From Parcubacteria group bacterium 21-54-25 (lineage in GTDB: Bacteria; Patescibacteriota; Minisyncoccia; Phycocordibacterales; Phycocordibacteraceae), in the NCBI GenBank assembly GCA_002255585.1, contig NCBJ01000003.1, forward strand, positions 21,571 through 85,570: a DNA stretch of 64,000 bases. The letters are read 5' to 3'. Below are positions 23,910 through 41,418 of the stretch, piece by piece (the stretch's first letter is position 1; the number at the start of each line of letters is the position of its first letter). The notes beneath the pieces are model-generated. The model saw only the letters and a list, made by a program, of their open reading frames with translations. It searched no databases and was not told the DNA's origin. The translations under genes and the position numbers were made by a program.

Positions 23910-24413
23910 ATGAGCGAGAAACGGGAAGTGTTCCGTCGTGTGGAGACCGATGGCCCCTGCACGGCCATACGCGAGCTCACGCCCGACGAGGTGATCGGGG
24001 AAGCGAAGCGGATCATCAAGGCGCGCTTCCGGCGCGGGCGCAGGATCGCCCAGCCCAGGGACGCCGAGGATTACCTCATCCTCACCCTTGGCGACCGCGA
24101 GCAGGAGGTCTTCTCCTGCCTCTATCTCGACCAGCGCCACCGGGTAATCAGCTGCGACCTCATGGCCTTCGGCACCCTGGCCGAGGCCCGAGTCTACCCG
24201 CGGGAGATCGTCAAACGAGCCATCCTTTACAACGCGAGTTCGATCATCTTCGCCCACAACCATCCCTCGGGCGTCGCCGAGCCCAGTAAGGACGACGAGG
24301 CGCTCACGCGCCGACTTTCCGACGCCCTTCGCCTCATCGACGTCCGCGTACTCGACCACTTCGTCGTAGGGGGAGGCGAGACGGTGACCTTCGCCGAGCG
24401 CGGGTTGCTGTGA
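23910..24413 (+). CDS. radC: RadC-like JAB/MPN domain protein (second copy, ~70% identical to 20950..21453)
   Basis: HNHPSGVAEPSKDDEALT motif and the same length (167 aa). Confidence 0.85.
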   Translation: MSEKREVFRRVETDGPCTAIRELTPDEVIGEAKRIIKARFRRGRRIAQPRDAEDYLILTLGDREQEVFSCLYLDQRHRVISCDLMAFGTLAEARVYPREIVKRAILYNASSIIFAHNHPSGVAEPSKDDEALTRRLSDALRLIDVRVLDHFVVGGGETVTFAERGLL

Positions 24414-25444: not shown

Positions 25445-27220
25445 ATGCGCGCGCAGAATATGAGTATGAGCTTAACTCGCCAACACGTGCTCGATTTGGA
25501 AGACTACAAGGTGCGACCGGCGTTATCCCCGATCGTGCAAAATGCCGTTGATGTCTTGGCCAGCGCGCATGGGACAGAGCGTGGGGCTATCTACACCCGC
25601 CAGGAAGTCGTGGAGTTTATTCTCGATCTCGTTGGGTACACAACGGATCATCCACTTCATGAGGCGCGATTGCTGGAACCCTCGGTGGGCGAGGGCGACT
25701 TTCTCGTTCCAGCGGTTAAGCGTCTGCTGGCTTCCTACGCAACCAGCCGTCGTCCGCACTCGGCGCTTGTGGATGACCTCGCTCCCGCGCTCACGGCGGT
25801 CGAGCTGCATTCCGACAGTTTGACGCTAGTCAAGGAGAAGGTTCTTGGCGTGCTCGGCGAATTTGACGTTACGGGGCCTTCGGCGCGCCAGTTGCTCGAT
25901 GCTTGGCTGAGTAACGGCGACTTCCTCCTTACAAACCTTCCCCGTCCATTCACGCATGTTGTGGGTAATCCGCCGTATGTCCGGCAGGAGCTCGTCCCCG
26001 ACGCGCTCCTGCAAGAGTACCGGCGGCGATACGAAAGCATCTATGATCGGGCGGATCTGTATGTGCCATTCATCGAGCGCTCGCTAACGTCCCTTGAGCC
26101 GGGTGGCGTTGTGGGCTTTATATGTACAGATCGATGGATGAAGAATCGGTACGGAAAGCGGCTTCGGCAGATCATTTCTGAGGGCTACCACCTCCGCAGC
26201 TATGTCGACATGGTTGGGACGGACGCATTCCATTCCGATGTCACGACCTATCCGGCAATTACCGTGATCGCGCGCGAGAAGGCGGGCCCCACGCGGCTTG
26301 CAGGGCAGCCTAAGATCGATCGGGACTCGTTGCGTCAGCTCGCCGAGCTGATGAATGCAAGGCAAATCGCACCCGACGGCCCTGTCGCTGAACTAGCGGG
26401 GGTCGTCGACGGCGCAGATCCCTGGCTGCTGCAATCTGCCGATCAGCTCCAGGTGGTCCGGCGCCTAGAGCAGGAGTTTCCGATGCTCGAAGAAACGGGT
26501 TGCCAGGTAGGTATTGGCGTTGCAACTGGTGCCGATCGGGTGTTCGTAGCCCCGTTCGAGGAGCTGGACGTTGAGCCATCCCGCAAGCTGCCACTGGTGA
26601 TGACGAAGGACATTGCTTCGGGAGTGGTGAAGTGGCGGGGGTTCGGCGTCGTGAATCCCTTTGAGGCGGACGGCCAGCTGGTGGATCTTGCGGCTTACCC
26701 GCGGCTACGGCGGTATCTTGAGCACCACCGGGACACGGTCGCGCGTCGTAATTGCGCGACGAGACATCCGAATGGCTGGTACCGGACGATTGACCGGATT
26801 TACCCTGAGCTAGCCACGACGCCAAAACTCCTAATTCCAGATATCAAGGGTGAAGCGAACGTAGTATACGAGAGCGGGAAGCTCTATCCTCACCACAACC
26901 TGTATCACGTGACCTCGAAAGCGTGGGATCTTCGGGCGCTTCAGGCAGTCCTGCGCTCCTCGGTTGCGAAGCTCTTCGTGTCGACGTACTCAACCCGGAT
27001 GCGCGGAGGCTATTTGCGGTTTCAGGCGCAGTACCTTCGCCGTATTCGGATCCCTCAGTGGGATGAGGTACCAGACGACCTCCGGAGGAGTCTCACTGAG
27101 GCCGCAAAGTCGGGTGATACCGAAGCATGCAACCGCGCGGTATTTGTGCTCTATAGGCTGACACAAGAAGAACAAGCCGCAATTGGTGGCAGCGGAGCCC
27201 AAGATCGATATGACAATTGA
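25445..27220 (+). CDS. N6-adenine DNA methyltransferase (gamma class, Eco57I/TaqI-like family), the modification subunit of a Type II R-M system
   Basis: Motif [11 protein letters not shown]-terminal AdoMet-binding region. 591 aa with a C-terminal target-recognition region. Confidence 0.8.
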
Positions 27221-27947
27221 CCTCGCGGATTTCGATACCAAGGCACGGGAGGCGATTAAGGCGTTCTGGGGAAACCGCGAGGCGGCGCGCCAGCGGCAGA
27301 TCGCACAAGGAAAAGCGGACCAAGGAGAGCGGGCGGGTGTCACGGCGGGCAAGAACATGGACGGTTTCGTGTTGCTCGCGCAGGACATCGTACGCCAAAA
27401 CGGCTTACCGCACGCCGACATTTTCCTTAAGCGACGTGTCCTCACCCTCCCAGGCTATTTTCGTCCGACTAAGCAATGGGACATGCTCGTGATGAACCAA
27501 GGCCGCCTTGTGGCTGCCATTGAATTCAAGAGCCAGGTGGGGCCCTCTTTCGGGAATAACTTTAACAATAGGACAGAGGAGGCGATTGGCACCGCTCTCG
27601 ACCTACGAACCGCGTTCCGAGAAGGTGCCTTTGGGGATAGCCAGGCTCCATTCGTCGGTTGGTTGATGTTGGTCGAAGACTGTGAAGGTTCTCGATCTCC
27701 GGTGCGGGATCGCTCCCCCCACTTCCCGGTATTCGCAGATTTCCAAGGCTCCTCGTACGCGGATCGCTATAACATCCTGTGCAGGAAGCTTGTCCAGGAA
27801 CAGCTGTATACGGCAGCGTCGGTGATTATCTCCAGCCGATCCGCGGTTGACACCGGAGCCTTCGCAGAGCTGCTACCGTTGACTGGCTTGCGGACGTTCG
27901 TAGCAAGCTTGGGAGGACACGTTGCGGCCGAGGCGGCTCGGGGCTGA
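27210..27947 (+). CDS. Type II restriction endonuclease (PD-(D/E)xK). Its start overlaps the MTase stop by 11 nt.
   Basis: [21 protein letters not shown] carries D...ExK. The M-then-R layout and sizes (~590/245 aa) resemble PaeR7I/XhoI-type systems. The family is not confirmed. Confidence 0.5.
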
Positions 27948-28716: not shown

Positions 28717-30486
28717 ATGGAAGACCCGCTCATGCAAATGCCCGTTGCCTCTACTGTCGAGTCGCAGAAAAACCAAGTCGCTTTCCTATTTGGCGCGGGG
28801 GCGTCAATGGAAGCGGGCGTTCCTGATACCGTGTCGCTAATCAACGAATTCCGTGTGAAAGATGACGATGCTAATGTCAGCGAATTTCTGGAACTGCTTG
28901 GCAGATGGGCTAAGCAGCAGGATCGTCCTCTTGATATAGAACTCGTCCTCGAAACACTCCAGCGTCTGGCCGACTGGAAAGAAGACCCGTTGTCAGGGTT
29001 TGCGGACAAACCAATCAAGATCGACGGGCTGGATGCCCAAACGCTTCTCAACCGACTACGGGATTTCATAAAAAATAAGGTCTTGGTCGATGCCGAGCAT
29101 ATTACCTATCTGGAACCGCTCCGCGGCTTCATCGACGCATACCGACCCCTCCATCTCTACTCCGCGAACTACGATACCGCTATCGAGGTGCTCTGCGCCG
29201 AGCACAAACTGAAATACCGGGACGGATTTGATGAGGCATGGAATCCCGCTCTCTTAGATGAGCCGAACGTTGATCTCCGTCTATTCAAGCTTCATGGCTC
29301 GGTGACGTGGTATCGAAGCAACCGTGGGCGATTTTTGAAAATCCCGGTCCTGCTCCACGACAGCTCCGTCGAATTGGTGACTAAGGAACGCGCTGAAGCC
29401 CTAATGCTTTACCCCGCACAGAAATTCGAGTATGTGGAGCCACTGTTTGAACTGTTGCTGGCCGCCAAGCGGCGGTTAGCGGAGAGTCAGGTGTTAATCG
29501 TGGTCGGCTACTCATTTCGGGACGAGCATATTCGTCAGTTGCTATGGGATATAGCCCGCGAATCGCCCAGGTTCATCGTCATTCTGATCGGACCCAAGGC
29601 ACGAGATATTTATCAAGAGCGACTCAAATGGTACGAACGAGACAGGATCCCCTCGGCGCTCCAGGGGCGGGTGCTCTGCCTCCCTTTTTTGTTCGGGAGG
29701 GTCTTTCCCGCGCTGCAACCGGAATTGTTACCACGGGTGCTCCAGTTTCGCGAGGACTTGGAGCAACAGTTAGCACAGGAGCGACGAGGTCATCCTGGGA
29801 TTTGGGAGGGTGCTGTGCTGAATGCGGCTCGCGGCGGAGATTACGAAGTAGTCCGCAGAATCCTAGAAAAGCCGCAGGTGTTAGCGCAACAGCTCAACTA
29901 TGCGCAACAATTTGATTGCCTGGTTCTAAGCCTTTTCCATGCGGCTGCAAACAGCGATGTTGTCGCAGGAAGATATTTCTGGGACAAGCTGCATGATACG
30001 TTGCGAGAGATCATTGACCGTATCACTCTCAACGTACAATTCGGCGGATCTTCCAGCTGGCTCGTAGTGTCCGTTAATAAAAACAACCGAAGCGAGAATT
30101 TTCAGAATCTTATCCGCGGGCTTGCGGCTCCGCATCAGGAGATAGATCGGCGGCGTCGGTGGATGGGTGATGCCGAGTCCTCATCAGAATACCTGCGGGC
30201 GGTGAATCGGGTCTTAACGGATCTACAGAGTGCGATGCAGATCTGGTCCAACGTAGGGCAAGTCGCGCCGAGCGACTATGCGGCAGCACGCCAACAGGAA
30301 ATTCCAGGGGATCTAAAGGGGGAGATTCTGGATAAACTTGATCGGTTGCGGGAAAAAAATTCCGAGTCCTGGTCGGACGTCGACGAGCGGCAACTAGAGC
30401 AGGGGCTCAGGGGAACCGAACAAGCCGTCATTAACAAGGTGTTTCAGGAGTTAGACCAGTTGTGGGGCGAGAATAGGGAATTGTAA
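28717..30486 (+). CDS. SIR2_2-family (defence-type sirtuin-like NADase fold) protein with a ~300-aa helical C-terminal domain
   Basis: VAFLFGAGASMEAGVP (Rossmann Gly-rich), LYSANYDTAIE (catalytic Asn), FKLHGSVTW (catalytic His), VVGYSFRDEHI, as in ThsA/DSR SIR2 domains. Confidence 0.75.
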   Translation: MEDPLMQMPVASTVESQKNQVAFLFGAGASMEAGVPDTVSLINEFRVKDDDANVSEFLELLGRWAKQQDRPLDIELVLETLQRLADWKEDPLSGFADKPIKIDGLDAQTLLNRLRDFIKNKVLVDAEHITYLEPLRGFIDAYRPLHLYSANYDTAIEVLCAEHKLKYRDGFDEAWNPALLDEPNVDLRLFKLHGSVTWYRSNRGRFLKIPVLLHDSSVELVTKERAEALMLYPAQKFEYVEPLFELLLAAKRRLAESQVLIVVGYSFRDEHIRQLLWDIARESPRFIVILIGPKARDIYQERLKWYERDRIPSALQGRVLCLPFLFGRVFPALQPELLPRVLQFREDLEQQLAQERRGHPGIWEGAVLNAARGGDYEVVRRILEKPQVLAQQLNYAQQFDCLVLSLFHAAANSDVVAGRYFWDKLHDTLREIIDRITLNVQFGGSSSWLVVSVNKNNRSENFQNLIRGLAAPHQEIDRRRRWMGDAESSSEYLRAVNRVLTDLQSAMQIWSNVGQVAPSDYAAARQQEIPGDLKGEILDKLDRLREKNSESWSDVDERQLEQGLRGTEQAVINKVFQELDQLWGENREL

Positions 30487-30891: not shown

Positions 30892-30986
30892 TTCCCCTTA
30901 GGAGTGGAAAGGTCGCTGTGCAACCTATTGAACTCGTGATGGATAAATGGCACCATCACAAAACCATCACACGAGAACCGGCACTC

Positions 30987-31997
30987 ATGGCCACCTTCCG
31001 GAAAATGGCATCCGGCCACTGGCAAGCGATCGTGCGGCGCAAGGGCTACCCGCACGCCGCGCGTACCTTCCGCACCAAGGCGCTCGCAGAGCGCTGGGCA
31101 CGCGGTATCGAGAACAGCATCGACGAGGGCGAGTATGCGGCCGCCTCCCGCATATCCGTTGGCGAACTTCTCGCTCGCTACGAGGAGCGCTTCACGCCAG
31201 CCAAGCGATCCCGCGTGAAGGAGAGGTCCCGAATCAAGACACTGACCCGGCACCTCGGCGAACTGCCGCTCTCCGTCCTCACGCCAGAGGCCATCGTCTC
31301 CTACATTGAGGACCGGTTGGAAGAGGTGGCTTCCGATACAGCGCGCAAGGAGCTGCACACGCTCTCCGTCATCGTGGACACCGGCATGGCGCTTTGGGAG
31401 ATCGGCCTGCGCGTGAATCCGGTGGTGGTCGCCAAGGCCATCCTGCACGCCACGAAACTCCTCAAGCCCGGGGTGAAGCGCGAGCGCCGGCCGACCCCCA
31501 AGGAGCTTGCGGCACTGGCGAAATCGAGCCACTGGCCGCTGTGGGAGTATGCCATCGAGACGGCCATGCGCCGCGGCGAGATCGCAGTGCAGCGGCGCGA
31601 ACACCGATCCGGAAACGTGCTGCATATTCCGCAGACGAAGACCGACCAGCCCCGTACCATTCCTCTGTCGCGGCGGGCCATGGAGATCCTCGACGGCCTG
31701 CTGGAGCGCGGCGACGGCGCGGTTTGGGGCATTACGGCCGACGCCATGACCCGCGCGTTCGCGCGCGAGTGCCGGGCGGCCAACATCGCCGACCTGCGCC
31801 TGCACGACCTGCGGCACGAAGGAACGTCACGGCTGTTCGAGAAGGGATGGACCATCCCGCAGGTGGCGGCGGTCACCGGCCATTCGGACTGGTCCTCCCT
31901 GAAGCGCTACACCAAGCTGAACCCGTCGCGGCTGGCGGCGAAGCTGGGTCGACGTGGCAAACGCCGCCAGGCCCGGGCCGACCTCTCGGATGGTTAA
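30987..31997 (+). CDS. int: Tyrosine recombinase/phage-type integrase
   Basis: C-terminal LHDLRHEGTSRLFEKGWTIPQVAAVTGHSDWSSLKRYTKL (R...HxxR...Y catalytic box). N-terminal SAM-like arm. Adjacent to the tRNA fragment. Confidence 0.85.
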   Translation: MATFRKMASGHWQAIVRRKGYPHAARTFRTKALAERWARGIENSIDEGEYAAASRISVGELLARYEERFTPAKRSRVKERSRIKTLTRHLGELPLSVLTPEAIVSYIEDRLEEVASDTARKELHTLSVIVDTGMALWEIGLRVNPVVVAKAILHATKLLKPGVKRERRPTPKELAALAKSSHWPLWEYAIETAMRRGEIAVQRREHRSGNVLHIPQTKTDQPRTIPLSRRAMEILDGLLERGDGAVWGITADAMTRAFARECRAANIADLRLHDLRHEGTSRLFEKGWTIPQVAAVTGHSDWSSLKRYTKLNPSRLAAKLGRRGKRRQARADLSDG

Positions 31998-32226
31998 CCT
32001 ACACCCCGATGAACAGGGAGGCCGACTGCGGCGCGAGCGTGGGTTTACTCATGGAACAGTGCGGCTAACGGGCCGCAGAGTGAGTGTGGCACTGTGTAGA
32101 ATGCAGGTATGCACCAAGACGGCCTGTGCCTTGCCCATGCATCTGAGCCCCGTTATTGGGGCACGTGAAGACAGCTAACGGCCGGGACCATCCTGGCGGT
32201 TAACGCAAACAAAGGACGGAGAACGC

Positions 32227-33399
32227 ATGAACAACACCGAGGATTCGAATTGGTTCGATGACTACGCCGAGGGTGTAGATGACCTCCAAGTCGAGGAGTA
32301 CGACATAACGGCTTCTCCAAACGATTTCAATGTCATGACCCTTCATAGCTTCGTTGAGTCTGGAGCAGTACGCATCCCTGGCTTTCAGCGCAACTTCGTT
32401 TGGGACCTCGGGCGAGCGTCAAAACTCATAGAATCCCTGATCCTGGGTTTGCCGGTGCCGCAGCTCTTCCTCTACGAGCAGGCACGCAACAGGTTCCTGG
32501 TTATCGACGGACAACAACGGCTCATGTCCATCTACTACTTCATCAAGAAACGCTTCCCTCGGAAGGAGAAGCGGGTTGAGCTTCGCGCGATCTTCGATCG
32601 TGAGGGCCGGATTCCTGACGAGATACTTCATGAAGATGAGTACTTCCAGACCTTCAACTTAAGGCTACCGGAGCGGCTGCCAAATCACGAGAACAAGTTC
32701 AAGGGCCTGAACTATGCAACACTCGGCGAATACAAGGCGCAGTTTGATCTTAGGCCAATCCGGAACATAGTGGTGAAGCAGAATGCTCCTTCAGGAGATG
32801 ATTCATCAATGTATGAGGTCTTCAACCGACTCAATTCTGGCGGCATCAACCTGCGGCCGCAGGAGATCCGCACCAGCATGTATCATTCTGCATTCTATGA
32901 AATGCTGTACCACATCAACGCGGAGCCGGGGTGGCGGAAGATACTGCAGTGGTCTGAACCGGACCTACATATGAAGGACATCGAGATCCTTCTGCGCGGT
33001 TTCGCTATGCTCATCGATGGCGAGCACTACGCGCCATCGATGGTGAAGTTCCTGAATCAGTTCTCAAAGAAATGCGAAACGCACGATGCACAGCAGAACA
33101 CCTATCTCCGTGATCTGTTCTTTTCGTTCCTCGGCGCGTGTCACGATCTTCCGGACGACGCGTTCGTGAACAAGAAGAACAAGCGGTTCAATATCGCTCT
33201 TTTCGAGGCTATCTTCTCGGCCTCATGCGAACGCGCATTCGGCGAACGACGCCCGGTCGCGGGTGAACTACAGCGTGAGGCCATCGAAGCGCTCGAGACA
33301 GATGAGGAGTTTCTCGAAGCGGCACTTGAAGGAACAACGCGAACGGTCAATGTACAGAAACGCCTCAGCCGAGCACGGGAAATCGTGGGCGCAATGTAG
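32227..33399 (+). CDS. DUF262 (ParB-like/GmrSD N-terminal-type) domain protein
   Basis: IPGFQRNFVWDLGRASKLIESLILGLPVPQLFLYE...FLVIDGQQRL (DGQQR motif). Confidence 0.8.
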   Translation: MNNTEDSNWFDDYAEGVDDLQVEEYDITASPNDFNVMTLHSFVESGAVRIPGFQRNFVWDLGRASKLIESLILGLPVPQLFLYEQARNRFLVIDGQQRLMSIYYFIKKRFPRKEKRVELRAIFDREGRIPDEILHEDEYFQTFNLRLPERLPNHENKFKGLNYATLGEYKAQFDLRPIRNIVVKQNAPSGDDSSMYEVFNRLNSGGINLRPQEIRTSMYHSAFYEMLYHINAEPGWRKILQWSEPDLHMKDIEILLRGFAMLIDGEHYAPSMVKFLNQFSKKCETHDAQQNTYLRDLFFSFLGACHDLPDDAFVNKKNKRFNIALFEAIFSASCERAFGERRPVAGELQREAIEALETDEEFLEAALEGTTRTVNVQKRLSRAREIVGAM

Positions 33400-33404
33400 G
33401 GAAA

Positions 33405-33974
33405 GTGGAGATGAGCCCAACCGTTGTCGACCGTCTACACGGTGAGTATTCTGCCCTCCTTGAGCTCCCCCAACTCGCCGGAGAGCCCTCCCTGCGCAGT
33501 GCCGCTGACGATAGTTTCCGCAAGGCGTTGCTGATGGCCGCTGCGAGCCACTTCGAGCAGCGCATGACTGATGCAGTACTCCAGTTCACAGCAGAAGCAA
33601 CGGCTAACAATCATGTCCTGACGTGGCTTGTAAGGAACCGTGTGGTCAGGAGGCAATATCACACGTGGTTCGATTGGGATGGGAAGAACGCCAACAGCTT
33701 CTTTGGGATGTTCGGCGACGAGTTTCGCAAGGCCATGAATGCTTCTGTCGCTCAGGATGACGACATTAAGGCATCCATTCAGGCGTTTTTGGAAGTCGGT
33801 CGCGAGCGAAATCGTCTGGTCCACCAGGATTTTGGGAGCTTCACGCTGGAAAAGACCTCGGAAGAGATCTATATACTCTATGGAACGGCGCTTCGCTTCG
33901 TTGATTGGTTCCCGGGAGCAATCAAGAGGTACGATGGTGAGCAGAGTTTGACGACAGAAAGCTCGGACGGATGA
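33405..33974 (+). CDS. HEPN-like (Rx4-6H) domain protein. It is the partner of the DUF262 gene, separated by a 5-nt gap.
   Basis: A conserved RERNRLVHQDF (R-x4-H) motif near the C-terminus with a helical context. The assignment is tentative. Confidence 0.4.
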   Translation: MEMSPTVVDRLHGEYSALLELPQLAGEPSLRSAADDSFRKALLMAAASHFEQRMTDAVLQFTAEATANNHVLTWLVRNRVVRRQYHTWFDWDGKNANSFFGMFGDEFRKAMNASVAQDDDIKASIQAFLEVGRERNRLVHQDFGSFTLEKTSEEIYILYGTALRFVDWFPGAIKRYDGEQSLTTESSDG

Positions 33975-34033: not shown

Positions 34034-34279
34034 TCAGGCCATCTCGTACCGCGAAAGCGCTCTGGCGCGGCGGGTGTCGATGTACTCCGCGATGTCCCGA
34101 ACGTCGGCGACCCGTGCCTTCCCGATCTTGAAGGTCCGCACGGGACAGGTCTCCGCCGAAACCGCGTTCAGGAGAACGCGGGTCGTTTTGTAGTGCAATA
34201 CCTCGGCCAGTTGCCTCGTCGTCAAGGTCAGCGAGCCGTACTTCTCGTAGAGCAGTTGGGCAGTGTCACTCAGGTTCAT
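34034..34279 (-). CDS. xis: Excisionase/AlpA-like HTH (MerR-type HTH_17) DNA-binding protein
   Basis: LTTRQLAEVLHYKTTRVLLNAVSAETCPVRTFKIGKARVADVRDIAEYI pattern. The start is moved to the ATG at 34279. Confidence 0.5.
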   Translation of the reverse strand: MNLSDTAQLLYEKYGSLTLTTRQLAEVLHYKTTRVLLNAVSAETCPVRTFKIGKARVADVRDIAEYIDTRRARALSRYEMA

Positions 34280-34774
34280 GGCAGTATCCCGTAGGCCATG
34301 ACCCAAGTCCCAACGCATGTCGTCCTGGAGGTCCCGAGTCAGCGACCTCACGCCGGGAAGGGCGATCGGTACGTGAGCAGCGGCCCGTCCAGAGACGGTA
34401 CTTCTTGCCGTATGCCTCACTTGCACCATGACCGCAGGTCATGGGGCGTTGGTGCATACAGCCACCCCAGTATAGATCCCTACCCCCGTCCCTGCGGAGT
34501 CCCTAGAGGGTAGGGAAGGGCGTAGGGACAGGGTGGGGTCCGTAACCCATTGTTTGGGAATGGCGAGAAGCTCTGGGGCAGGGAGGCCGATCACCCCCCG
34601 CCTTAGGGCCTCGTTTCCACTTGTCCCCCCAGCCCCGCCACCCCTCCGGCGCCGCTGGTGTACCACCCATCCTCCCCGCGTGGCAGGATAGATCGCAGCC
34701 GCGGGAGAGGGGATGCCCCGTCGGCAGGATGGGTACCCCATAACAATCAACAAAACAGCAGGGGGAAAAGACCA

Positions 34775-35155
34775 ATGAAACTGCTTCTGCGCCGGAACCA
34801 GAAGTCGGGCCTGATCGGCAAGGTCAGCTTTACCCTCGACGTGCGAGCGGAACTCTCCGCGGACGAGCAGCGCAACATCGCCAAGTACAAGCTCGGGGGT
34901 ACCATGCTCTATGAGCGCGAGAAGATCCTTGACCCAGGCAAGGGGCTCCTCGGGGCGGCCTCCCGGCTTGCCTTCAAGATGATGAACCTCTCGATCTCGG
35001 TCGATGACCTTGCCAAGGGCAAGCAGGTCGAGTGCAAGGACATCGTCGAGATGCTTGCCGTCGAGGACCAGATCAAGGAGGCCTGCGAGACCTTCGCCGC
35101 GGTCCTCCGGGCCGCCGCGACCTTCGGCGGCGAGGAGGTGATCGAGTTCGCATAG
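34775..35155 (+). CDS. Conserved hypothetical protein upstream of the T4CP-like ATPase. A truncated homolog occurs at 41279-41386.
   Basis: ATG with a GGGGGAAAAG RBS. MKLLLRRNQKSGLIGKVSFTLDVRAELSADEQRN is repeated as a fragment elsewhere. Confidence 0.45.
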   Translation: MKLLLRRNQKSGLIGKVSFTLDVRAELSADEQRNIAKYKLGGTMLYEREKILDPGKGLLGAASRLAFKMMNLSISVDDLAKGKQVECKDIVEMLAVEDQIKEACETFAAVLRAAATFGGEEVIEFA

Positions 35156-37216
35156 GTGTCCTCGAACTGGCGGAATTGGTTTCGGACGCCCGGGGCCCTC
35201 GGGGAGGCGAAGGACACCGAGCGGCTATACGCTGAGGTGCAGGAGGCCTCCGCGCGATCCCCCCTTGCCGATGAGCATGCCCTGGACACGTTCCTGCTCG
35301 AATTGATCGATGAGATCTGCGCCCGGCACGACCTCACCCCCTCCATACCCCTCGGCGAGGCCCTCTGGGCCGCGATCCGGGGCCTCCTCTATGCCGAGGG
35401 CTTCCTCCTCGACCTGCCCGACCGGGCGTCGCTTGCACGGCTCACGGTGGAGGAGGGCGTGCTCCTGCGCGCCGCCCTTACGCGCCACCTGCGGTTCCTC
35501 ACCGACCATGCGCGCCTCCTTTCCATCTGGCGCGAGAAGCTCGTCTGGCTCTTCTCCGGCATCCTGGGATCCCTCCCGGTATCGGCCCTCCGGGAACCCA
35601 CGGAGGGCGCAGATGACACTCTGGTGTTCCCAGAGGCCCCGATCGCCGCGCTCCTGGAGAACCTGCCGGAGGCCCTCGACCGCACCATCGCGACCTTCTT
35701 CGACGAGGACATCGCAAACGCCCACCTCTTCGAGCGGATGCGGGAGCGCCTGGAGGACAACGCCCTTGTCGCCTCCGGCATCCCGCGGGAGCGCGGGAAC
35801 GCCCCCTCGGGCAAGGCCCTGCTCCCGAGCGAACGCCACGACAAGTCGGGTGACTACCTGGTCGAGGCATACTTCCGCGGGACCCCGCTCCTCGACTTCT
35901 TCCGGAGCCCTCTCCCGTTTGCCATCCCCGCGCCGGTACGCCTTGAGCACATGCATATCCTCGGCGGTACCGGACACGGCAAGACCCAGTTGATCCAGTA
36001 CCTCCTCACGAGGGAGCAGGGCGGGTTCTGCGTCATCGATTCCCAGGGCGACATGATCGAGAAGATCGCCAGGCGCTTTCCGGACGTGATCCTCCTTGAC
36101 CCCACGGACGTGGCCCATCCGCTTGCCCTCAACATGTTCGACATGAAGACCAAGGACGAGGCGGAGTTGAACGCCACCATCGCCCTCTACGAGTACATCT
36201 TCAGCGGTCTGTTGGGCGCCGAGCTCACCCAGCGGCAGAGCCTCCTCTTCGGGTCGATCGCTCGCCTCATGCTCCTGGTCCCTGACGCGACCATCCATAC
36301 GCTGATCGACGTCATGGAGCATGGGGAGCGGTTCAAGCCGTACATGGAGCGCCTCGGCGGCACCGCCGCCCGGTTCTTCGAGGAGCAGTTCTTCCAGAAG
36401 TCGTTCCAGGCCAACAAGCAACAGATCCTTGCCCGCCTCTATGGCGTCCTGGAGAACCGGACCTTCGACCGGATCTTCTCGGCACCCAGGAACAAGATCG
36501 ACTTCTTCGAGGCGATGAACGCGGGCAAGATCGTGCTCGTCAACACCGCCAAGTCGTTCTTCCAGGCGGAGCGCTCCTCGATCTTCGGCCGGTTCGTGAT
36601 CGCGATGATCGCGCAGGCCGCAGTCCGGCGGGCGTCCATCCCTGAGTCGAAACGCACCCCCTGGTTCGTCTACATCGACGAGTTCCACGAGTACGTGCGC
36701 GGTGGTGACCGCCAGGTTGAGGACCTCTTCAACCAGGCGCGCAAGTACCGGGTGGGACTCATCTGCTCACACCAGAACCTGGGCCAGCTCGAGGACAAGC
36801 TCCGGGCCACCATCATGGCCTCGACCGCGATCAAGATCGCGGGCGGCGTCTCGGCCAAGGATGCGCAGTTCCTCGCCCAGGAGATGCGCTGCCAGAAGGA
36901 GGCGATCCTGAATACCCGCAAGCGCGAGCGCGGCGCCGAGTGGATCTGCGCGGTGCGCAACCTCGGCACCCAGAAGGTGACCTGCCCGTTCGGAGCGCTC
37001 GAAGCCATGCCCGAGCGCCCCGACTATGATGCATTCCTCGAAGAGAACCGCCGCCGGTATGCGATGCAGCCCGAAGAGCGCACCAAGCACCACGAGGAAG
37101 AGCAAGTACAACCGCGGGAGAGCGAATCAAAATCAGCAACAGGATCAGGTGGGCAAAAACCAGTACAACCGGACCAACGGGAACGGGATGATTCGAATGA
37201 CGACATCTGGGGATAG
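35156..37216 (+). CDS. Type IV coupling protein-like (TraD/TraG/VirD4-family) P-loop ATPase
   Basis: Walker A HILGGTGHGKTQL, Walker B FVYIDEFHEY, SHQNLGQL motif, acidic C-terminal tail. GTG start. Confidence 0.55.
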   Translation: MSSNWRNWFRTPGALGEAKDTERLYAEVQEASARSPLADEHALDTFLLELIDEICARHDLTPSIPLGEALWAAIRGLLYAEGFLLDLPDRASLARLTVEEGVLLRAALTRHLRFLTDHARLLSIWREKLVWLFSGILGSLPVSALREPTEGADDTLVFPEAPIAALLENLPEALDRTIATFFDEDIANAHLFERMRERLEDNALVASGIPRERGNAPSGKALLPSERHDKSGDYLVEAYFRGTPLLDFFRSPLPFAIPAPVRLEHMHILGGTGHGKTQLIQYLLTREQGGFCVIDSQGDMIEKIARRFPDVILLDPTDVAHPLALNMFDMKTKDEAELNATIALYEYIFSGLLGAELTQRQSLLFGSIARLMLLVPDATIHTLIDVMEHGERFKPYMERLGGTAARFFEEQFFQKSFQANKQQILARLYGVLENRTFDRIFSAPRNKIDFFEAMNAGKIVLVNTAKSFFQAERSSIFGRFVIAMIAQAAVRRASIPESKRTPWFVYIDEFHEYVRGGDRQVEDLFNQARKYRVGLICSHQNLGQLEDKLRATIMASTAIKIAGGVSAKDAQFLAQEMRCQKEAILNTRKRERGAEWICAVRNLGTQKVTCPFGALEAMPERPDYDAFLEENRRRYAMQPEERTKHHEEEQVQPRESESKSATGSGGQKPVQPDQRERDDSNDDIWG

Positions 37217-38183
37217 CGGCTATGCTCTTTACCCAATGGGCGCTCTCCGACAATCGAAGTTCACACGCTCCGCGGCTAGGTCCTCGGTCCGCATCGGCGC
37301 GTACCAGATCGACATCGTCGATGCCGTCTACCGCTTCCGCTACCTCACGGCGCCCCAGATCGCCGCGGTCCTTGATCGCCATCCCGACTCGGTGAAGCGC
37401 GCGGTGCGGGGGCTATACGACGCGCGATACCTGCTTCGCCCTCGCTGCCAGCGCGATCCCGCACCCTGGCAGACCACCCCCATCTATCACGCCATCTCCG
37501 CAAAGGGCGCGGAACTCCTGAGGGAAGAGCGCGGCTACAACGTGCCGAAGAACGGCTTCGACGCCAAAGAAAGTCAGGAGCACATCGCTAACTGGAGGCA
37601 TGACACCGCGCTCTCTGAGTTCCTGGTGAAGCTGCTCGTCGACGTTAGAAAAGAGGGCCAGCTTGAACTCTTGTTCCCGCGGGACCTATTGGAGCGGGGT
37701 ATCATCGCACCCGACGTGCCTTGGCAGCCCTACGCTTGGAAGCCGCTTCAATGGAGCACGGCCAAAGGCACGGTGGTGCCGGACCAAGCGGTCATGTTCC
37801 AGGATCCCGGCCGGCCCGAAGGGCAGAACCGCTCGCTCCTCCTCATTGAACTAGATCGAGGTACCGAGGCCATGGAGCGGGTTCGCAACGATAGCAACAC
37901 GATCCGAGGCAAACTGGAGAAGTACATCGCGGCGTATGGGGAAGGCAAACACACCGAGACCTTTGGCGTCCGGAACATGCGGGTCGCGTTTGTCACGACT
38001 TCTCAGCAGCGTATTCACGGTATGCAGAGACTCCTGTACGATATGGGTGTTGAGCGGCGCATGTTCCTGTTCTCAACGATCAAGGAGACGCGGGAGTGCG
38101 TGAGCCTGCTTGCTCTTTCGTGGGCGGACAACCGGGGCGATGTCGCCTATCTTACACGCATTGATAGGCGAGGAAGCGGCTAG
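37188..38183 (+). CDS. Replication-relaxation (Replic_Relax) family protein
   Basis: Winged-helix N-terminus (YRFRYLTAPQIAAVL) and LLLIELDRGTE region, typical of this ICE/plasmid family. The start is uncertain (ATG at 37188). Confidence 0.5.
   Translation: MIRMTTSGDSGYALYPMGALRQSKFTRSAARSSVRIGAYQIDIVDAVYRFRYLTAPQIAAVLDRHPDSVKRAVRGLYDARYLLRPRCQRDPAPWQTTPIYHAISAKGAELLREERGYNVPKNGFDAKESQEHIANWRHDTALSEFLVKLLVDVRKEGQLELLFPRDLLERGIIAPDVPWQPYAWKPLQWSTAKGTVVPDQAVMFQDPGRPEGQNRSLLLIELDRGTEAMERVRNDSNTIRGKLEKYIAAYGEGKHTETFGVRNMRVAFVTTSQQRIHGMQRLLYDMGVERRMFLFSTIKETRECVSLLALSWADNRGDVAYLTRIDRRGSG
37660..37757 (+). repeat. ~98-bp imperfect direct repeat (about 88% identity) with 39390-39487
   Basis: ttgttcccgcgggacc..ttggagcgggg..atcatcgca..ccgacgtgccttggcagccctacgc..agccgcttcaatggagc occurs at both loci. 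Confidence 0.7.
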
Positions 38184-38449
38184 CGTGCCTGAGGGCGGTG
38201 AGCCCCAACCTCTGATAGGAAGATGCGTGGCCTTCTGGATACGTGTCTGCCGGTTATTCTCCGGTTTCCGGGTATTGCCCGATACAATCTCGCAAACGCA
38301 GGGAGTCCGGTTGACGGTTCGACGCTGGTTGCAGGCGTGGTCGACCAAACACGCGGAACGATGTCTCCGAGTGGACCCGATCGACGCGAGCGGCCTAGGA
38401 AACTCGTAGGCCAGTGCCGGGAAGGCGCCTGAGCTGCATAGTGTGACGT

Positions 38450-38615
38450 TATGGCACTAGTCATCTGAGACTAGAGGCTCGCTTTAGTTCTCTTTGCGTT
38501 CTGCGGTTCAGTTATATCCTGCTCATAGTCATACTTATTTATCGGTCGCGTGAGACCACTGCTACACGTCGGAAGGGACTATGGGCTATAGTCTCTCAAG
38601 ACTAGTGGTGTCTCC
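38450..38615. promoter_or_regulatory. Putative origin/iteron region. Repeated GAGACTAG/GACTAGTGG motifs flank an AT-rich stretch, upstream of the RepA-like gene.
   Basis: cactagtcatctgagactagagg and tatagtctctcaagactagtggtg around the AT-rich cagttatatcctgctcatagtcatacttatttatc. Confidence 0.3.
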
Positions 38616-38669
38616 TTGTTTGGGCTGGTGGTTCTCTATATGGTTAGCCTATCGTTGTTCCGGAGGACC

Positions 38670-39176
38670 ATGAAAATGACGGAAGGTCAGAATACCGCGA
38701 TCGCGGAAGTCATCTCGCTCCCAAAGAAGGATTCCTCACGGGCGTCCACGAAGAAATGGGGCGCGGCGGTGATGCAGCTTGGCTTCAGTGTCCTCCCATC
38801 CCTCGTTTTCCGCGCGCAGGCACGCCTTGGGCTAAGCCCGACACAGCTAGCAATCCTGCTCCAGTTGGCCGACTACTGGTGGGACCATCAGCGCAAGCCC
38901 TATCCGAGCAAGAGAGCGCTCAGCGAACGTCTCGGCCTGGGTCCCCGCCAAATTCAGCGTCACATCGCTGAGCTCGAGGCTGCGGAATTGGTGCGGCGGA
39001 TTGAACGGCGAGCCGCGCATCGGGGTAAGCTCAGCAATGAGTACGATCTCAGTGGACTTGTGGAGCGCCTGAAGAAGCTTGAGCCCGAGTTTCGCGAAGC
39101 GGGTCAATCGAAACGCCGCGCGAGCCGTCGTGGCGGTCTCGGGAAGCATGGGTTGTCCGGTAGCAAGAAGCGTTAA
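38670..39176 (+). CDS. Winged-helix DNA-binding protein (RepA/HTH_36-like, putative replication initiator or regulator)
   Basis: LSPTQLAILLQLADYWWDHQRKPYPSKRALSERLGLGPRQIQRHIAELEAAELVRR, basic C-terminal tail, GGAGGA RBS. Confidence 0.45.
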   Translation: MKMTEGQNTAIAEVISLPKKDSSRASTKKWGAAVMQLGFSVLPSLVFRAQARLGLSPTQLAILLQLADYWWDHQRKPYPSKRALSERLGLGPRQIQRHIAELEAAELVRRIERRAAHRGKLSNEYDLSGLVERLKKLEPEFREAGQSKRRASRRGGLGKHGLSGSKKR

Positions 39177-39183
39177 TCGTAGA

Positions 39184-39293
39184 AGCGGCGTAGCTCAGCG
39201 GGAAGAGCGTCCCTGCTTTCGACATCCACTGAAGCCAACATCTCCAGTGTATGGGCGGGAAGGTCACAGGTTCAAGTCCTGTCGCCGCTACCA
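39184..39293 (+). tRNA. tRNA gene with a ~30-35-nt intervening sequence in the anticodon region. The probable anticodon is UCG (Arg), uncertain. CCA is encoded.
   Basis: Perfect acceptor (AGCGGCG/CGCCGCT), D arm (GCTC-AGCGGGAA-GAGC) and T arm (ACAGG-TTCAAGT-CCTGT), then A-CCA. The anticodon stem CCTGC/GCGGG encloses loop TTTCGAC plus an insert with its own hairpin (CCACTG..CAGTG). Confidence 0.55.
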
Positions 39294-39393
39294 AATTCCC
39301 GTGTGTCGAGCGCGACGATGCCCTCGGCGGTTGCGTGTAAACCATGGGTTCCGAGCGAAGCGGAGGCCCATCTTATACCACTAAGGAACCTCT

Positions 39394-39487
39394 GAGCTGT
39401 TGTTCCCGCGGGACCGATTGGAGCGGGGCCTCATCGCATCCGACGTGCCTTGGCAGCCCTACGCCTGAGAGCCGCTTCAATGGAGCC
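39394..39487 (+). pseudogene. Relic fragment of a Replic_Relax-family gene
   Basis: Translates to LLFPRDRLERGLIASDVPWQPYA*, matching LLFPRDLLERGIIAPDVPWQPYAW of 37188..38183, with TGG changed to TGA. Confidence 0.5.
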
Positions 39488-39714
39488 ATGATAAGTGGTA
39501 AGTATCAGAGTGCTCGGCCCGCTGGTTGCACTCTACTAAAATCAATTCCTACACTCTAGGCGGTAGCGGTTCTACGGGAACGTAAAGACGCGCAAGGAAG
39601 ACGGCGCTATGCGTGTCAAGTGGCAATCTAGGAAAGCCTTTCCATTTGAGACGCTGTAATATTCTCAGCCACCCAATGCTGGGTCGCAGTAGCACCCAGA
39701 GTCCAGGCCCCCAA

Positions 39715-40374
39715 TTAGTAAGTAAACACATCTCCTATACCCTGTATATCGAGTTTTACACGTGTCGGAAGATATTCGAAGGAGGCAAGTGCCTGATCCC
39801 ATCTAGCCTTCTCCTCTAGGCGGCTCTGCAGTGCAGCCAACAGAGACGGCAAATAAATTACATCGTCCACAGCATACTGTAGTTGATTCTGCGATAGCTC
39901 ATGCGAAAACCAATCTGACCGCGCGTACCCCTTGGGAATGCCTATTCCAAGGTGGTAATTGAGGATATCTTTCAAGCTGTGAGAGCCAATCGGATTGTCA
40001 TTCAGAATCTTTGAGGCGACCTTTGTGCAGGAAATATTCTTGATGTCACACTTCCAATGGGCGGCCATGAAACGCAAATCAAAAACAGCGTGGTGAAATA
40101 TCTTTTTTACATTCTGGCTCGCTATTAGCTTGGCAAGATTAATTGGCGGCCGCTCTTTCTGGATACGCACAATCACCGCTATCCCGTTAGGCCTGTATAG
40201 CTGACAGGTGGCAATGTCATCGTGCTCCCAACTCAAGCCAGTGGTTTCAATATCCAAGGCAACGACCTTTCCATCTACGAAAGATAGAAACAAGTCATCA
40301 CTGATGTCAGCGCCGACGACCTTCACCCCAACAGTGCCATCAACACTAGGAAGTATCGTATCAATTTCGGACAT
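39715..40374 (-). CDS. DEDDy-type 3'-5' exonuclease (RNase D/WRN-exo-like)
   Basis: VALDIETTGL (Exo I), HHAVFDLRF (Exo II), YAVDDV (Exo III, Y-x3-D). Confidence 0.8.
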   Translation of the reverse strand: MSEIDTILPSVDGTVGVKVVGADISDDLFLSFVDGKVVALDIETTGLSWEHDDIATCQLYRPNGIAVIVRIQKERPPINLAKLIASQNVKKIFHHAVFDLRFMAAHWKCDIKNISCTKVASKILNDNPIGSHSLKDILNYHLGIGIPKGYARSDWFSHELSQNQLQYAVDDVIYLPSLLAALQSRLEEKARWDQALASFEYLPTRVKLDIQGIGDVFTY

Positions 40375-40398
40375 TGTTTAAATACTAACACGCAATTG

Positions 40399-41256
40399 TT
40401 ATGTAGGTTGGGATCCTTCTTCCAACGTTCTAATCTGCTTTTCTAGGAAGTGCCAGAGAAATCCACCTTTTTTAAACGTGACTACGATAATGCCACCTCG
40501 CCCAGAATTGTACTTTGGCAAACTAAATAACGCGATATCTTTAAAGCGGTAAAACGGAAGAGATGGCGCTACACTAACAACATCGACTGACAAATGTGCT
40601 GTCCCGTCTTGAAATATCTGCTTAATATCACGAATTGCACCAGCCACCCTCTCCTTAACACTCCCCGGGTCCGTTGCGTACATATTAGCCAACTGCCCCA
40701 TGAGCGTCTCGTCTTCCGGGTTAGGCAATAGGAACTTCACGTCGGCACCCGGAGTTTTTGCGAGCTTTACGAAACTCTGCTCTCGGGAATGTCTCCAGGA
40801 GCTGGCATACCCAAAAAAGAACCGATAAGGGCCGCCACTCTCAAATAACACATCCCAATCGATCTCGCCTTGAAAATCGTCTACGCTGGAGATTGATACA
40901 AGTCCCGCCTCCTTGATCGCCAGCGACACGCCTACATGAGATAGGAGCTCGCGAGTCAGTCGTCTCTTAAGCAAGAGATCCCAGAATGCGGCCAGTACCG
41001 ACGAGGTCGAAATTACTGCGCCGCCCTCGCGCATGAGCGCCGAATACCAGTGTGGGTTCTTAGGGCTATCCGTCAAGTGTGCGAGATACATGAGGAACAG
41101 CCCGAAAAAAAATGCGACAAGTACCCACACGATTGTCCAAGCGGTTGTCAATTCCTTTTCTGGCATCCATTGTTTTTGTTTGTTCACGTTGTCCTCCCAT
41201 GACATCGACGCCCCCCACGGACTTGAGTGGCGCGCCGATTTAGAGTCCAATCCCAC
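40399..41256 (-). CDS. Membrane-anchored protein of unknown function, co-oriented with and 25 nt upstream of the exonuclease gene
   Basis: N-terminal TM helix (TTAWTIVWVLVAFFFGLFLMYLAHL) and a ~230-aa soluble domain with no recognised motif. Confidence 0.45.
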   Translation of the reverse strand: MGLDSKSARHSSPWGASMSWEDNVNKQKQWMPEKELTTAWTIVWVLVAFFFGLFLMYLAHLTDSPKNPHWYSALMREGGAVISTSSVLAAFWDLLLKRRLTRELLSHVGVSLAIKEAGLVSISSVDDFQGEIDWDVLFESGGPYRFFFGYASSWRHSREQSFVKLAKTPGADVKFLLPNPEDETLMGQLANMYATDPGSVKERVAGAIRDIKQIFQDGTAHLSVDVVSVAPSLPFYRFKDIALFSLPKYNSGRGGIIVVTFKKGGFLWHFLEKQIRTLEEGSQPT

Positions 41257-41278
41257 ACGGAGAGGAGATTAGGCATTG

Positions 41279-41386
41279 CGCCTCTCGTCTGCCGAGAGCT
41301 CTGCTTGCACATCGAGGACAAAGGCGACCTTTTCGATGAGCCCGGATTTCTGATTCTTGCGCAGCAACAGCTTCATGGCGTTCCTC
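41279..41386 (-). pseudogene. Truncated homolog (36 codons then stop) of the 34775..35155 small protein
   Basis: MKLLLRKNQKSGLIEKVAFVLDVQAELSADERRNA* against MKLLLRRNQKSGLIGKVSFTLDVRAELSADEQRNIAKYK. Confidence 0.5.
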
Positions 41387-41418
41387 CCGTGAATTGGTGA
41401 TGCCCCAATCCCATCCGA

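What the first reader, a model, noticed from the sequence alone, without database searches (positions are those of the whole stretch)
32227..33974. DUF262 plus HEPN-like gene pair directly downstream of the tyrosine integrase
DUF262 (DGQQR motif) is the N-terminal module of GmrSD-type type IV restriction enzymes and other defence proteins, where it normally pairs with a DUF1524 HNH-like nuclease. Here the tightly linked partner (5-nt gap) is a 189-aa protein with an R-x4-H HEPN-like motif (RERNRLVH) and no His-Me/HNH signature. A DUF262-HEPN split system would be an atypical GmrSD-like or Abi-like module with an RNase-type effector.
Basis: partly seen in the sequence, partly recalled or inferred. 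Interest (0 to 1): 0.65.

Follow-up and report, generated by a model that had tools for sequence, protein, structure and literature searches.

The report
PD-T4-2-type DUF262–HEPN defence gene pair
The two genes are real and correctly read as a DUF262 (ParB-like) protein plus a HEPN RNase-type partner, but this pairing is an already described and experimentally validated kind of anti-phage system (PD-T4-2 type), so this is a new, divergent member of a known kind.

Summary
Both ORFs exist as described. P1 (32227-33399, 390 aa) is a DUF262/GmrSD_N protein with DGQQR. P2 (33405/33411-33974, 189/187 aa) matches Pfam HEPN_RiboL-PSP (PF18735) above the curated cut-off. Its R135-N-x3-H140 motif is 99-100% conserved across 143 representatives only 29-50% identical to it.

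The architecture is not new. The "RiboL-PSP-HEPN in operon with ParB" link was tabulated in 2013 (PMC3710099). PD-T4-2, "DUF262, HEPN", with top HHpred hits PF03235 and PF18735, was validated against T4 in E. coli in 2022 (PMC9519451).

In 79 of 80 related loci from many phyla a P1-like gene lies directly upstream of the P2-like gene. No third gene and no integrase recurs, so this is a self-contained two-gene cassette. Here it is low-GC cargo between the integrase and the conjugation genes of an integrative element in a defence-rich region.

P1 hits PADLOC PD-T4-2_A (4.9e-38). P2 is missed by PD-T4-2_B, so it is a divergent HEPN subfamily.

Likely mechanism (inferred): P1 senses DNA and controls a HEPN RNase. 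Interest is low to moderate.

The parts
32227..33399 (+). P1, 390 aa: ParB-like DUF262 (GmrSD_N) domain at about residues 45-219, plus a helical C-terminal domain at about 220-390. Full-length NsnA / PD-T4-2_A-like. Proposed DNA/NTP-binding sensor.
   Evidence: ORF. Pfam GmrSD_N 2.7e-29. PADLOC NsnA 7.5e-59 over residues 24-387 and PD-T4-2_A 4.9e-38. 28% identity over the full length to an E. coli P2-prophage DUF262 partner of a HEPN gene, E=8e-46. AF2 is confident only for residues 220-390, which are helical. A Shine-Dalgarno-like AAGGACGGAG lies upstream of the ATG.
32506..32520 (+). DGQQR motif of the DUF262 domain (residues 94-98), the nucleotide-binding/hydrolysis motif of GmrSD-like proteins.
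   Evidence: Translation. D94, G95, Q97 and R98 are invariant and Q96 is >=90% conserved in 37 homologues. The QRxFVW (F53-W59) and FNRLNxGG (F199-G206) blocks are also invariant. The role of the motif is taken from the literature (PMC10952713; bioRxiv 2024.01.29.577857).
33405..33974 (+). P2, 189 aa from the GTG at 33405, more likely 187 aa from the ATG at 33411: RiboL-PSP-family HEPN protein. Proposed RNase effector.
   Evidence: ORF. Pfam PF18735 2.9e-14, 53.9 bits against a cut-off of 28.4, covering residues 18-168. The family has 869 representative clusters at E<=1e-3. AF2 pLDDT 87, all-helical. No PADLOC or NCBIfam hit.
33807..33824 (+). RNRLVH = R135-N136-x3-H140, the HEPN Rx4-6H catalytic motif.
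   Evidence: Translation. R135 143/143, N136 141/143 and H140 142/143 in representatives 29-50% identical to P2. Also invariant or nearly invariant in the closer set.
33651..33695 (+). Second conserved block, RQYHTWFDW..NAN (R83, Y85, H86, F89, W91, N95, N97). Function unknown; possibly the substrate or partner interface.
   Evidence: Translation. Conservation: R83 95%, Y85 91%, H86 89%, F89 99%, W91 99%. It lies in the lower-confidence part of the AF2 model, pLDDT 73-81.
31998..32226 (+). 229-nt spacer between the integrase stop and the P1 start. This is the presumed promoter region of the cassette and the GC break between the integrase (62-68% GC) and the cassette (50-57% GC).
   Evidence: Sequence. 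No sigma-70-like match was found here. GC profile.
30918..31997 (+). Tyrosine integrase of the surrounding integrative element. Context only, not part of the system.
   Evidence: Pfam Phage_integrase 5.7e-15. Not found next to the pair in the 80 related loci.

Best explanation
The pair is a self-contained two-gene anti-phage cassette of the PD-T4-2 type (ParB-like DUF262 protein + RiboL-PSP-family HEPN protein). It is carried as low-GC cargo between the integrase and the conjugation/mobilisation genes of an integrative element, inside a defence-rich region.

Proposed mechanism, with shown and inferred steps marked:
1. SHOWN: P1 has an intact DUF262 NTP-binding core (QRxFVW, DGQQR, FNRLNxGG) and a C-terminal helical domain homologous to that of NsnA/PD-T4-2_A.
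2. SHOWN: P2 is a HEPN protein with a strictly conserved R-N-x3-H motif.
3. SHOWN: the two genes are co-directional, 5-11 nt apart, and co-inherited in 79 of 80 loci across many phyla, with no third partner.
4. INFERRED by analogy with SspE, BrxU/GmrSD and the model proposed for Menshen NsnA: P1 binds invading (possibly modified) phage DNA. Nucleotide binding or hydrolysis at DGQQR then switches its conformation.
5. INFERRED from the general behaviour of HEPN domains: this releases or activates a P2 dimer, whose two Rx4H motifs form a composite RNase site. The RNase cleaves host and/or phage RNA (tRNA, rRNA or mRNA) and stops phage replication, probably at the cost of growth arrest (abortive infection).
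For: Domain identities. Motif conservation. Gene-pair conservation in 79/80 loci from Nitrospirota, Spirochaetia, Binatia, Acidobacteriota, Latescibacterota, Cyanobacteria, Proteobacteria, Chloroflexota and Bacteroidota. No conserved third gene (largest flanking cluster is 9 of 80 loci).

The same architecture occurs on E. coli, Exiguobacterium and Acinetobacter plasmids and in an E. coli P2-like prophage between CI and integrase.

PD-T4-2 = 'DUF262, HEPN', with HHpred top hits PF03235 and PF18735. It was validated against T4 both when cloned and by deletion in its native ECOR65 host: PMC9519451. The RiboL-PSP-HEPN 'operon with ParB' entry is in PMC3710099.

Defence-rich neighbourhood (XhoI-family RM, SIR2, dCTP-deaminase-like). 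Compositional break marking the pair as cargo.
Against: No experiment exists on this clade, and the PD-T4-2 mechanism is itself uncharacterised in the searched literature.

P2 is not recognised by the PADLOC PD-T4-2_B model at E<=0.1. It shows no BLASTP similarity to E. coli-type HEPN partners and only a non-significant profile-profile match confined to the motif helix (hhalign E=0.008 and 0.036). Homology of the partner to PD-T4-2_B therefore rests on the shared Pfam family.

Foldseek found no solved HEPN structure for the P2 model. The DUF262 half of P1 could not be modelled.

Most related loci sit among ordinary chromosomal genes and not in obvious defence islands.
Confidence: 0.7

Rival explanations
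1. Toxin-antitoxin or addiction module of the mobile element. P2 is a HEPN RNase toxin held inactive by P1, and the pair mainly stabilises the integrative element or plasmid (post-segregational killing), not phage defence.
For: The same architecture is almost the only cargo on about 4-kb E. coli plasmids (four such records). Here it sits inside an integrative/conjugative element. HEPN toxins are known TA components (PMC3710099; bioRxiv 2026.02.22.705581).
Against: In most of the 80 related loci the flanks are ordinary chromosomal genes with no recurrent mobile-element gene. The validated relative PD-T4-2 protects against phage in its native host. A 390-aa NTPase-like DNA-binding protein is an unusually elaborate antitoxin. 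The two roles are not mutually exclusive.
Confidence: 0.15
2. Split GmrSD-like type IV restriction system acting on DNA. P1 recognises modified phage DNA, and DNA cleavage is carried out by P2 or by P1 itself.
For: DUF262 is the N-terminal module of GmrSD, BrxU and SspE, which act on modified DNA (PMC10952713). P1 gives weak PADLOC hits to HEC-05/06, SspE and a type II REase model.
Against: No DUF1524/His-Me or other DNase domain appears in either protein. P2 belongs to a HEPN family, and HEPN domains are RNases in characterised cases. P1 is far closer to NsnA/PD-T4-2_A (1e-38 to 1e-59) than to GmrSD-type models (1e-5 to 1e-9).
Confidence: 0.06
3. Remnant or variant of a Menshen (NsnABC) system. 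P1 is an NsnA whose NsnB ATPase and NsnC effector have been lost or replaced.
For: The best PADLOC hit of P1 is NsnA (7.5e-59, full length).
Against: No ABC-ATPase (AAA_15/DUF3696) or NsnC-like gene is adjacent. The HEPN gene follows P1 in 79 of 80 loci, so the two-gene form is the stable state and not a remnant. Bona fide HEPN-partnered E. coli DUF262 proteins also score higher on NsnA than on PD-T4-2_A, so the NsnA model is simply broad.
Confidence: 0.03

Closest known systems
PD-T4-2 (Vassallo et al. 2022, E. coli ECOR65; PADLOC PD-T4-2_A/B)
   Same: A two-gene, co-directional, tightly spaced cassette. Gene 1 is a DUF262/ParB-like protein without DUF1524; gene 2 is a small HEPN protein whose best Pfam family is PF18735 HEPN_RiboL-PSP (one search compared). 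P1 matches PD-T4-2_A at 4.9e-38. Both are carried on mobile elements.
   Different: P2 is not detected by the PD-T4-2_B model and is about 20 aa longer than that 168-position model. P2 has its own conserved RQYHTWFxW block. P1 is only about 28% identical to E. coli-type DUF262 partners. This clade is found mainly in environmental phyla. No experimental data exist for it.
RiboL-PSP-HEPN family 'in operon with ParB' (Anantharaman et al. 2013, PMC3710099 Table 1)
   Same: Exactly the association seen here: a RiboL-PSP-type HEPN with a conserved Rx4-6H motif, encoded next to a ParB-fold gene.
   Different: That was a purely computational class description. No fusion to an endoRNase L-PSP domain is present here.
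Menshen NsnA (Millman 2022; Li et al. 2025, PMC12065111)
   Same: P1 has the NsnA architecture of ParB-DUF262 plus a C-terminal helical domain (ParBDB in that paper), with a full-length HMM match of 7.5e-59. NsnA is the proposed DNA sensor.
   Different: Menshen needs an NsnB ABC-ATPase transducer and an NsnC inPIN-nuclease effector. Here a single HEPN protein follows directly, with no ATPase.
GmrSD / BrxU / SspE type IV restriction-like enzymes
   Same: They share the N-terminal DUF262 domain with QRxFVW, DGQQR and FxRxNxGG motifs.
   Different: Those enzymes carry a C-terminal DUF1524 His-Me DNase on the same polypeptide and cut or nick DNA. No such domain exists in P1 or P2.

Membership tests
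PD-T4-2-type system (DUF262 + RiboL-PSP HEPN) | Component A: DUF262/ParB-like protein homologous to PD-T4-2_A, lacking DUF1524 | tested here: met
   PADLOC PD-T4-2_A 4.9e-38; Pfam GmrSD_N 2.7e-29 with no DUF1524.
PD-T4-2-type system (DUF262 + RiboL-PSP HEPN) | Component B: small HEPN protein of the RiboL-PSP family (PF18735), as found by HHpred for PD-T4-2B | tested here: met
   P2 hits PF18735 at 2.9e-14, above the gathering score. PD-T4-2B's top HHpred hit is PF18735 at 97.8% (PMC9519451 Table S3).
PD-T4-2-type system (DUF262 + RiboL-PSP HEPN) | Component B recognised by the PADLOC PD-T4-2_B HMM (strict, tool-level membership) | tested here: not met
   No PADLOC hit for P2 at E<=0.1. E. coli-type partners reach only 1e-3 to 1e-8. 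hhalign of the P2 family against the E. coli-type family gives E=0.036, restricted to the motif region.
PD-T4-2-type system (DUF262 + RiboL-PSP HEPN) | A and B adjacent, co-directional and co-inherited | tested here: met
   5-11 nt gap; 79 of 80 related loci keep the pair.
PD-T4-2-type system (DUF262 + RiboL-PSP HEPN) | Protects against phage | not testable with these tools
   Only the E. coli ECOR65 representative has been tested.
HEPN superfamily | Conserved Rx4-6H motif | tested here: met
   R135 100%, N136 99%, H140 99% in 143 diverse representatives.
HEPN superfamily | All-alpha helical-bundle fold matching solved HEPN structures | tested here: inconclusive
HEPN superfamily | Metal-independent RNase activity | not testable with these tools
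   Requires biochemistry.
GmrSD-type type IV restriction enzyme | N-terminal DUF262 with DGQQR | tested here: met
GmrSD-type type IV restriction enzyme | DUF1524 His-Me/HNH nuclease domain, fused or as a split partner | tested here: not met
   No DUF1524/HNH hit in P1 or P2 at E<=0.1. The partner is HEPN in 79 of 80 loci.
Menshen (NsnABC) | NsnA-like ParB-DUF262 + C-terminal DNA-binding domain protein | tested here: met
   PADLOC NsnA 7.5e-59 over residues 24-387.
Menshen (NsnABC) | Adjacent NsnB ABC-ATPase and NsnC effector | tested here: not met
   The downstream gene is HEPN, followed by a convergent PrtN-like gene. There are no ATPase or NsnB/NsnC hits.
HEPN-MNT toxin-antitoxin | Minimal nucleotidyltransferase (MNT) partner | tested here: not met
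   The partner is DUF262. No NTase domain was found.

The most novel reading that the evidence does not exclude
This clade could be a functionally distinct branch of the DUF262-HEPN class. Its HEPN partner has diverged beyond recognition by the PD-T4-2_B model and carries a second, almost invariant R83-x-Y-H86-x2-F-x-W block. The clade might therefore use a different trigger (for example a particular DNA modification or structure sensed by P1) or a different RNA target than PD-T4-2. If so, it would offer a compact and phylogenetically very broad model for how a ParB-fold NTPase gates a HEPN RNase, a coupling for which no mechanism has been published.
Probability: 0.2. Interest if true: 0.5.

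Novelty: new member of a known kind. Interest (0 to 1): 0.25.

Why it matters
It adds little conceptually, because DUF262 + RiboL-PSP-HEPN pairs were predicted in 2013 and shown to defend E. coli against T4 in 2022.

The useful points are practical:
- This subfamily is large: 869 clusters at 50% identity for the HEPN partner.
- It is spread over many phyla.
- Its gene order is strictly conserved.
- PADLOC's PD-T4-2_B model misses it, so current defence-system annotation probably under-counts PD-T4-2-type systems, or mislabels P1 as an orphan Menshen NsnA.

The mechanism of the whole class is still unknown, so a well-conserved small representative could serve for structural and biochemical work.

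Tried and rejected
- Structure of P1. The alignment allowed by the tool (68-86% identity) was too shallow, so residues 1-219 came out below pLDDT 50. The Foldseek search was meaningless. A PDB profile search gave only a sub-threshold BrxU match (E=0.16) at the three DUF262 motifs.
- Obtaining the true PD-T4-2 sequence from ECOR65. It is not in the accessible collections. The E. coli plasmid (L081) and P2-prophage (L084) pairs I found are relatives that hit PD-T4-2_B only at 8.5e-4 and 1.4e-8. A family built around the prophage partner also reached only 1e-5 to 1e-8. A direct P2 versus PD-T4-2B comparison was therefore not possible.
- Direct homology between P2 and the E. coli-type HEPN partners. 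BLASTP found nothing. hhalign gave E=0.008 to 0.4, aligning only the RN..H helix.
- A search for a conserved third gene or a recurrent integrase around the pair in 80 loci found none. The ORF calling there was crude (longest ORF within 1.5 kb) in GC-rich genomes.
- No convincing sigma-70 promoter or intrinsic terminator for the cassette. Only GC-rich palindromes without a T-run lie downstream.
- No att-like direct repeats bounding the integrase element were found.

Full report
**Observation**

The window contains two co-directional ORFs as described. P1 runs from 32227 to 33399 (+, 390 aa, ATG). P2 runs from 33405 to 33974 (+, 189 aa from a GTG).
- P1 is preceded by a Shine-Dalgarno-like AAGGACGGAG.
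- For P2, three things favour the ATG at 33411 (187 aa, 11-nt gap): the NCBI gene model for the identical protein (P0001, 187 aa), the N-termini of homologues, and the purine-rich stretch upstream of that ATG. Either start gives a tightly coupled pair.
- DGQQR lies at 32506-32520 and RNRLVH at 33807-33824.
- The tyrosine integrase (30918-31997, Phage_integrase 5.7e-15) ends 229 nt upstream of P1.

**Domain identities**

P1 matches Pfam GmrSD_N/DUF262 (2.7e-29, residues 45-219). P2 matches Pfam HEPN_RiboL-PSP, PF18735, at 2.9e-14 (53.9 bits against a gathering score of 28.4), covering residues 18-168. Neither protein has any DUF1524/HNH hit at E<=0.1.

In PADLOC, P1 matches NsnA (Menshen) at 7.5e-59 over its full length and PD-T4-2_A at 4.9e-38. 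GmrSD-type models (HEC-05/06, SspE) reach only 1e-3 to 1e-9. P2 has no PADLOC hit and no NCBIfam hit.

In 43 homologues 50-70% identical to P2, residues E130, G132, R135, N136, R137 and V139 are invariant, and H140 is at least 90% conserved.

An exhaustive HMMER scan of 1.84 billion representatives found 869 clusters at E<=1e-3 (718 at 1e-10, 356 at 1e-30). Among 143 of the best representatives, only 29-50% identical to P2:
- R135 is present in 143/143, N136 in 141/143 and H140 in 142/143.
- R133 is variable, so the true motif is R-N-x3-H.
- A second block is also highly conserved and unexplained: R83 95%, Y85 91%, H86 89%, F89 99%, W91 99%.

In P1, the three DUF262 motifs (QRxFVW, DGQQR, FNRLNxGG) are invariant in 37 homologues.

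**Co-occurrence**

A scan of one genome per species returned 80 loci encoding P2 relatives. They come from Nitrospirota, Spirochaetia, Binatia, Acidobacteriota, Latescibacterota, Nostoc, Alpha-, Beta- and Gammaproteobacteria, Neisseria, Chloroflexota and Bacteroidota.
- In 79 of 80, a P1 relative (52-77% identical) lies on the same strand directly upstream of the P2 relative (39-60% identical). The exception is a contig with only 130 nt upstream.
- Two loci (L019, L031) have 1-1.6 kb between the two matches.
- None of the window's other genes (integrase, SIR2, PrtN-like, T4CP, relaxase) recurs in those loci.
- No flanking protein cluster occurs in more than 9 of 80 loci.
- A batch Pfam scan of 91 flanking ORFs shows heterogeneous, mostly ordinary chromosomal genes with no recurrent integrase.

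The pair is therefore an autonomous two-gene cassette, and the integrase adjacency is context only.

**Is the architecture known? Yes.**

- The 2013 HEPN survey lists "Ribo L-PSP-HEPN ... operon with ParB" with a conserved Rx4-6H motif (PMC3710099).
- Vassallo et al. 2022 recovered PD-T4-2, described as "DUF262, HEPN", from E. coli ECOR65. It protected K-12 against T4, and its deletion sensitised the native host (PMC9519451).
- Their HHpred table gives PF03235 DUF262 (99.7%) for PD-T4-2A and PF18735 HEPN_RiboL-PSP (97.8%) for PD-T4-2B. This is the same Pfam pair as here.
- Reviews list PD-T4-2 with Menshen and Dazbog as DUF262 systems that lack DUF1524.
- I found no mechanistic study of the class.

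**How close is it to PD-T4-2?**

The same architecture is annotated in several public records:
- about 4-kb E. coli plasmids (L081)
- an Exiguobacterium plasmid (L082; its DUF262 protein is 47.7% identical to P1 and the HEPN partner hits PF18735)
- an A. baumannii plasmid (L083)
- an E. coli P2-like prophage, between CI and integrase (L084)

The DUF262 partners are full-length homologues of P1, for example 28% identity and E=8e-46 to L084. Like P1, they score higher on NsnA than on PD-T4-2_A, so the NsnA model is simply broad.

The HEPN partners are much more diverged:
- The E. coli-type partners hit PD-T4-2_B only at 8.5e-4 to 1.4e-8.
- P2 does not hit PD-T4-2_B at all.
- BLASTP between P2 and an E. 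coli-type partner finds nothing.
- Profile-profile comparison aligns only the helix that carries RN..H, with non-significant scores.

The window pair therefore belongs to the DUF262 + RiboL-PSP-HEPN class at the Pfam level. It represents a separate, large HEPN subfamily that strict PADLOC rules would not call as PD-T4-2.

**Structure**

For P1, only the C-terminal helical domain (residues 220-390) was modelled confidently, and fold searches were uninformative.

**Context**

The region is a mosaic of mobile and defence genes:
- tRNA-Ser with a large serine recombinase
- a dCTP-deaminase-like gene
- an Eco57I-type methylase with an XhoI-family endonuclease
- a 589-aa SIR2 protein
- the tyrosine integrase, followed by the pair
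- a PrtN-like regulator, a T4 coupling protein, a Replic_Relax relaxase, a RepC/HTH_36 protein, and a second coupling-protein-like gene

The cassette has 50-57% GC. It is flanked by the integrase at 62-68% GC and the conjugation backbone at 61-69% GC. This is typical of cargo inserted next to an integrase.

**Mechanism**

Shown: the domain identities, intact catalytic and nucleotide-binding motifs, tight operon structure, and co-inheritance without a third gene.

Inferred by analogy with SspE/BrxU/GmrSD and the proposed role of Menshen NsnA: P1 binds invading DNA, and nucleotide binding or hydrolysis at DGQQR changes its conformation.

Inferred from the general properties of HEPN domains: this activates or releases a P2 dimer, whose paired Rx4H motifs form an RNase site. 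RNA cleavage then blocks phage replication, probably through growth arrest.

The rivals are an addiction/TA role for the mobile element, a DNA-targeting split GmrSD, and a degenerate Menshen system. The evidence makes each of these less likely.

**Verdict**

This is a new, divergent member of a known kind. Interest is low to moderate. The main practical value is that current defence-finder models appear to miss this large subfamily.

Noticed in passing
window 28717-30486 (+): A 589-aa SIR2-domain protein lies directly upstream of the integrase. It hits PADLOC Argonaute-associated SIR2 and stand-alone SIR2 defence models (about 1e-24) and Pfam SIR2_2, but no pAgo gene is adjacent. Its C-terminal ~290 aa have no domain hit.
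   Followed up: partly
window 25445-27947 (+): A type II restriction-modification pair: an Eco57I/TaqI_C-type methylase (591 aa) overlapping an XhoI-family endonuclease (254 aa, Pfam XhoI 2.3e-93).
   Followed up: partly
window 22208-23254 (-): A 348-aa dCTP-deaminase-like (DCD/dUTPase fold) protein in the same island. It could be a nucleotide-depletion defence gene.
   Followed up: no
window 14852-16606 (-) and 14960-15047 (+): A large serine recombinase ORF (Resolvase + Recombinase + Zn_ribbon_recom) abuts or overlaps the only tRNA gene in the window (tRNA-Ser GGA). This suggests a second integrated element inserted at the tRNA.
   Followed up: no
window 34034-42630: A conjugation/mobilisation module: PrtN-like regulator (34034-34429, -), TrwB-type coupling protein (35156-37216), Replic_Relax relaxase (ORF 37026-38183 overlaps the T4CP ORF by 190 nt, so its true start is probably downstream), HTH_36/RepC-like protein (38616-39176), 3'-5' exonuclease (39715-40374, -), and a second coupling-protein-like gene (41419-42630, -).
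   Followed up: partly
window 37664-37757 and 39393-39486: A 94-nt direct repeat, 90% identical. The second copy looks like a duplicated fragment of the relaxase gene, which points to rearrangement or decay of the element.
   Followed up: no
window 21100-21399 and 24060-24359: A 300-nt direct repeat at 78% identity, 2.96 kb apart, of unknown nature.
   Followed up: no
whole window (source record): Proteins identical to P1 and P2 are deposited under 'MAG: Parcubacteria group bacterium 21-54-25' (locus tags B7X04_01465/01470, 101-kb contig). A 54% GC contig with conjugation genes, several recombinases and a defence island is unusual for a CPR genome, so the binning may be wrong.
   Followed up: no
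P0362: One representative of the P2 family is 403 aa: the HEPN domain (residues 11-180) is fused to an uncharacterised C-terminal domain of about 220 aa. This is a possible alternative partner or sensor fusion.
   Followed up: no
L084 3916-5686 (E. coli NZ_CP025859 P2-like prophage): A DUF262 + HEPN pair occupies the slot between the CI repressor and the integrase of a P2-like prophage in at least 10 complete E. coli genomes. This is another integrase-adjacent cargo position for this class of system.
   Followed up: partly
L019 and L031: In two related loci the DUF262 and HEPN matches are separated by about 1.0 kb and 1.6 kb, and the DUF262 match is truncated in L031. These are possibly insertion-disrupted copies.
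   Followed up: no
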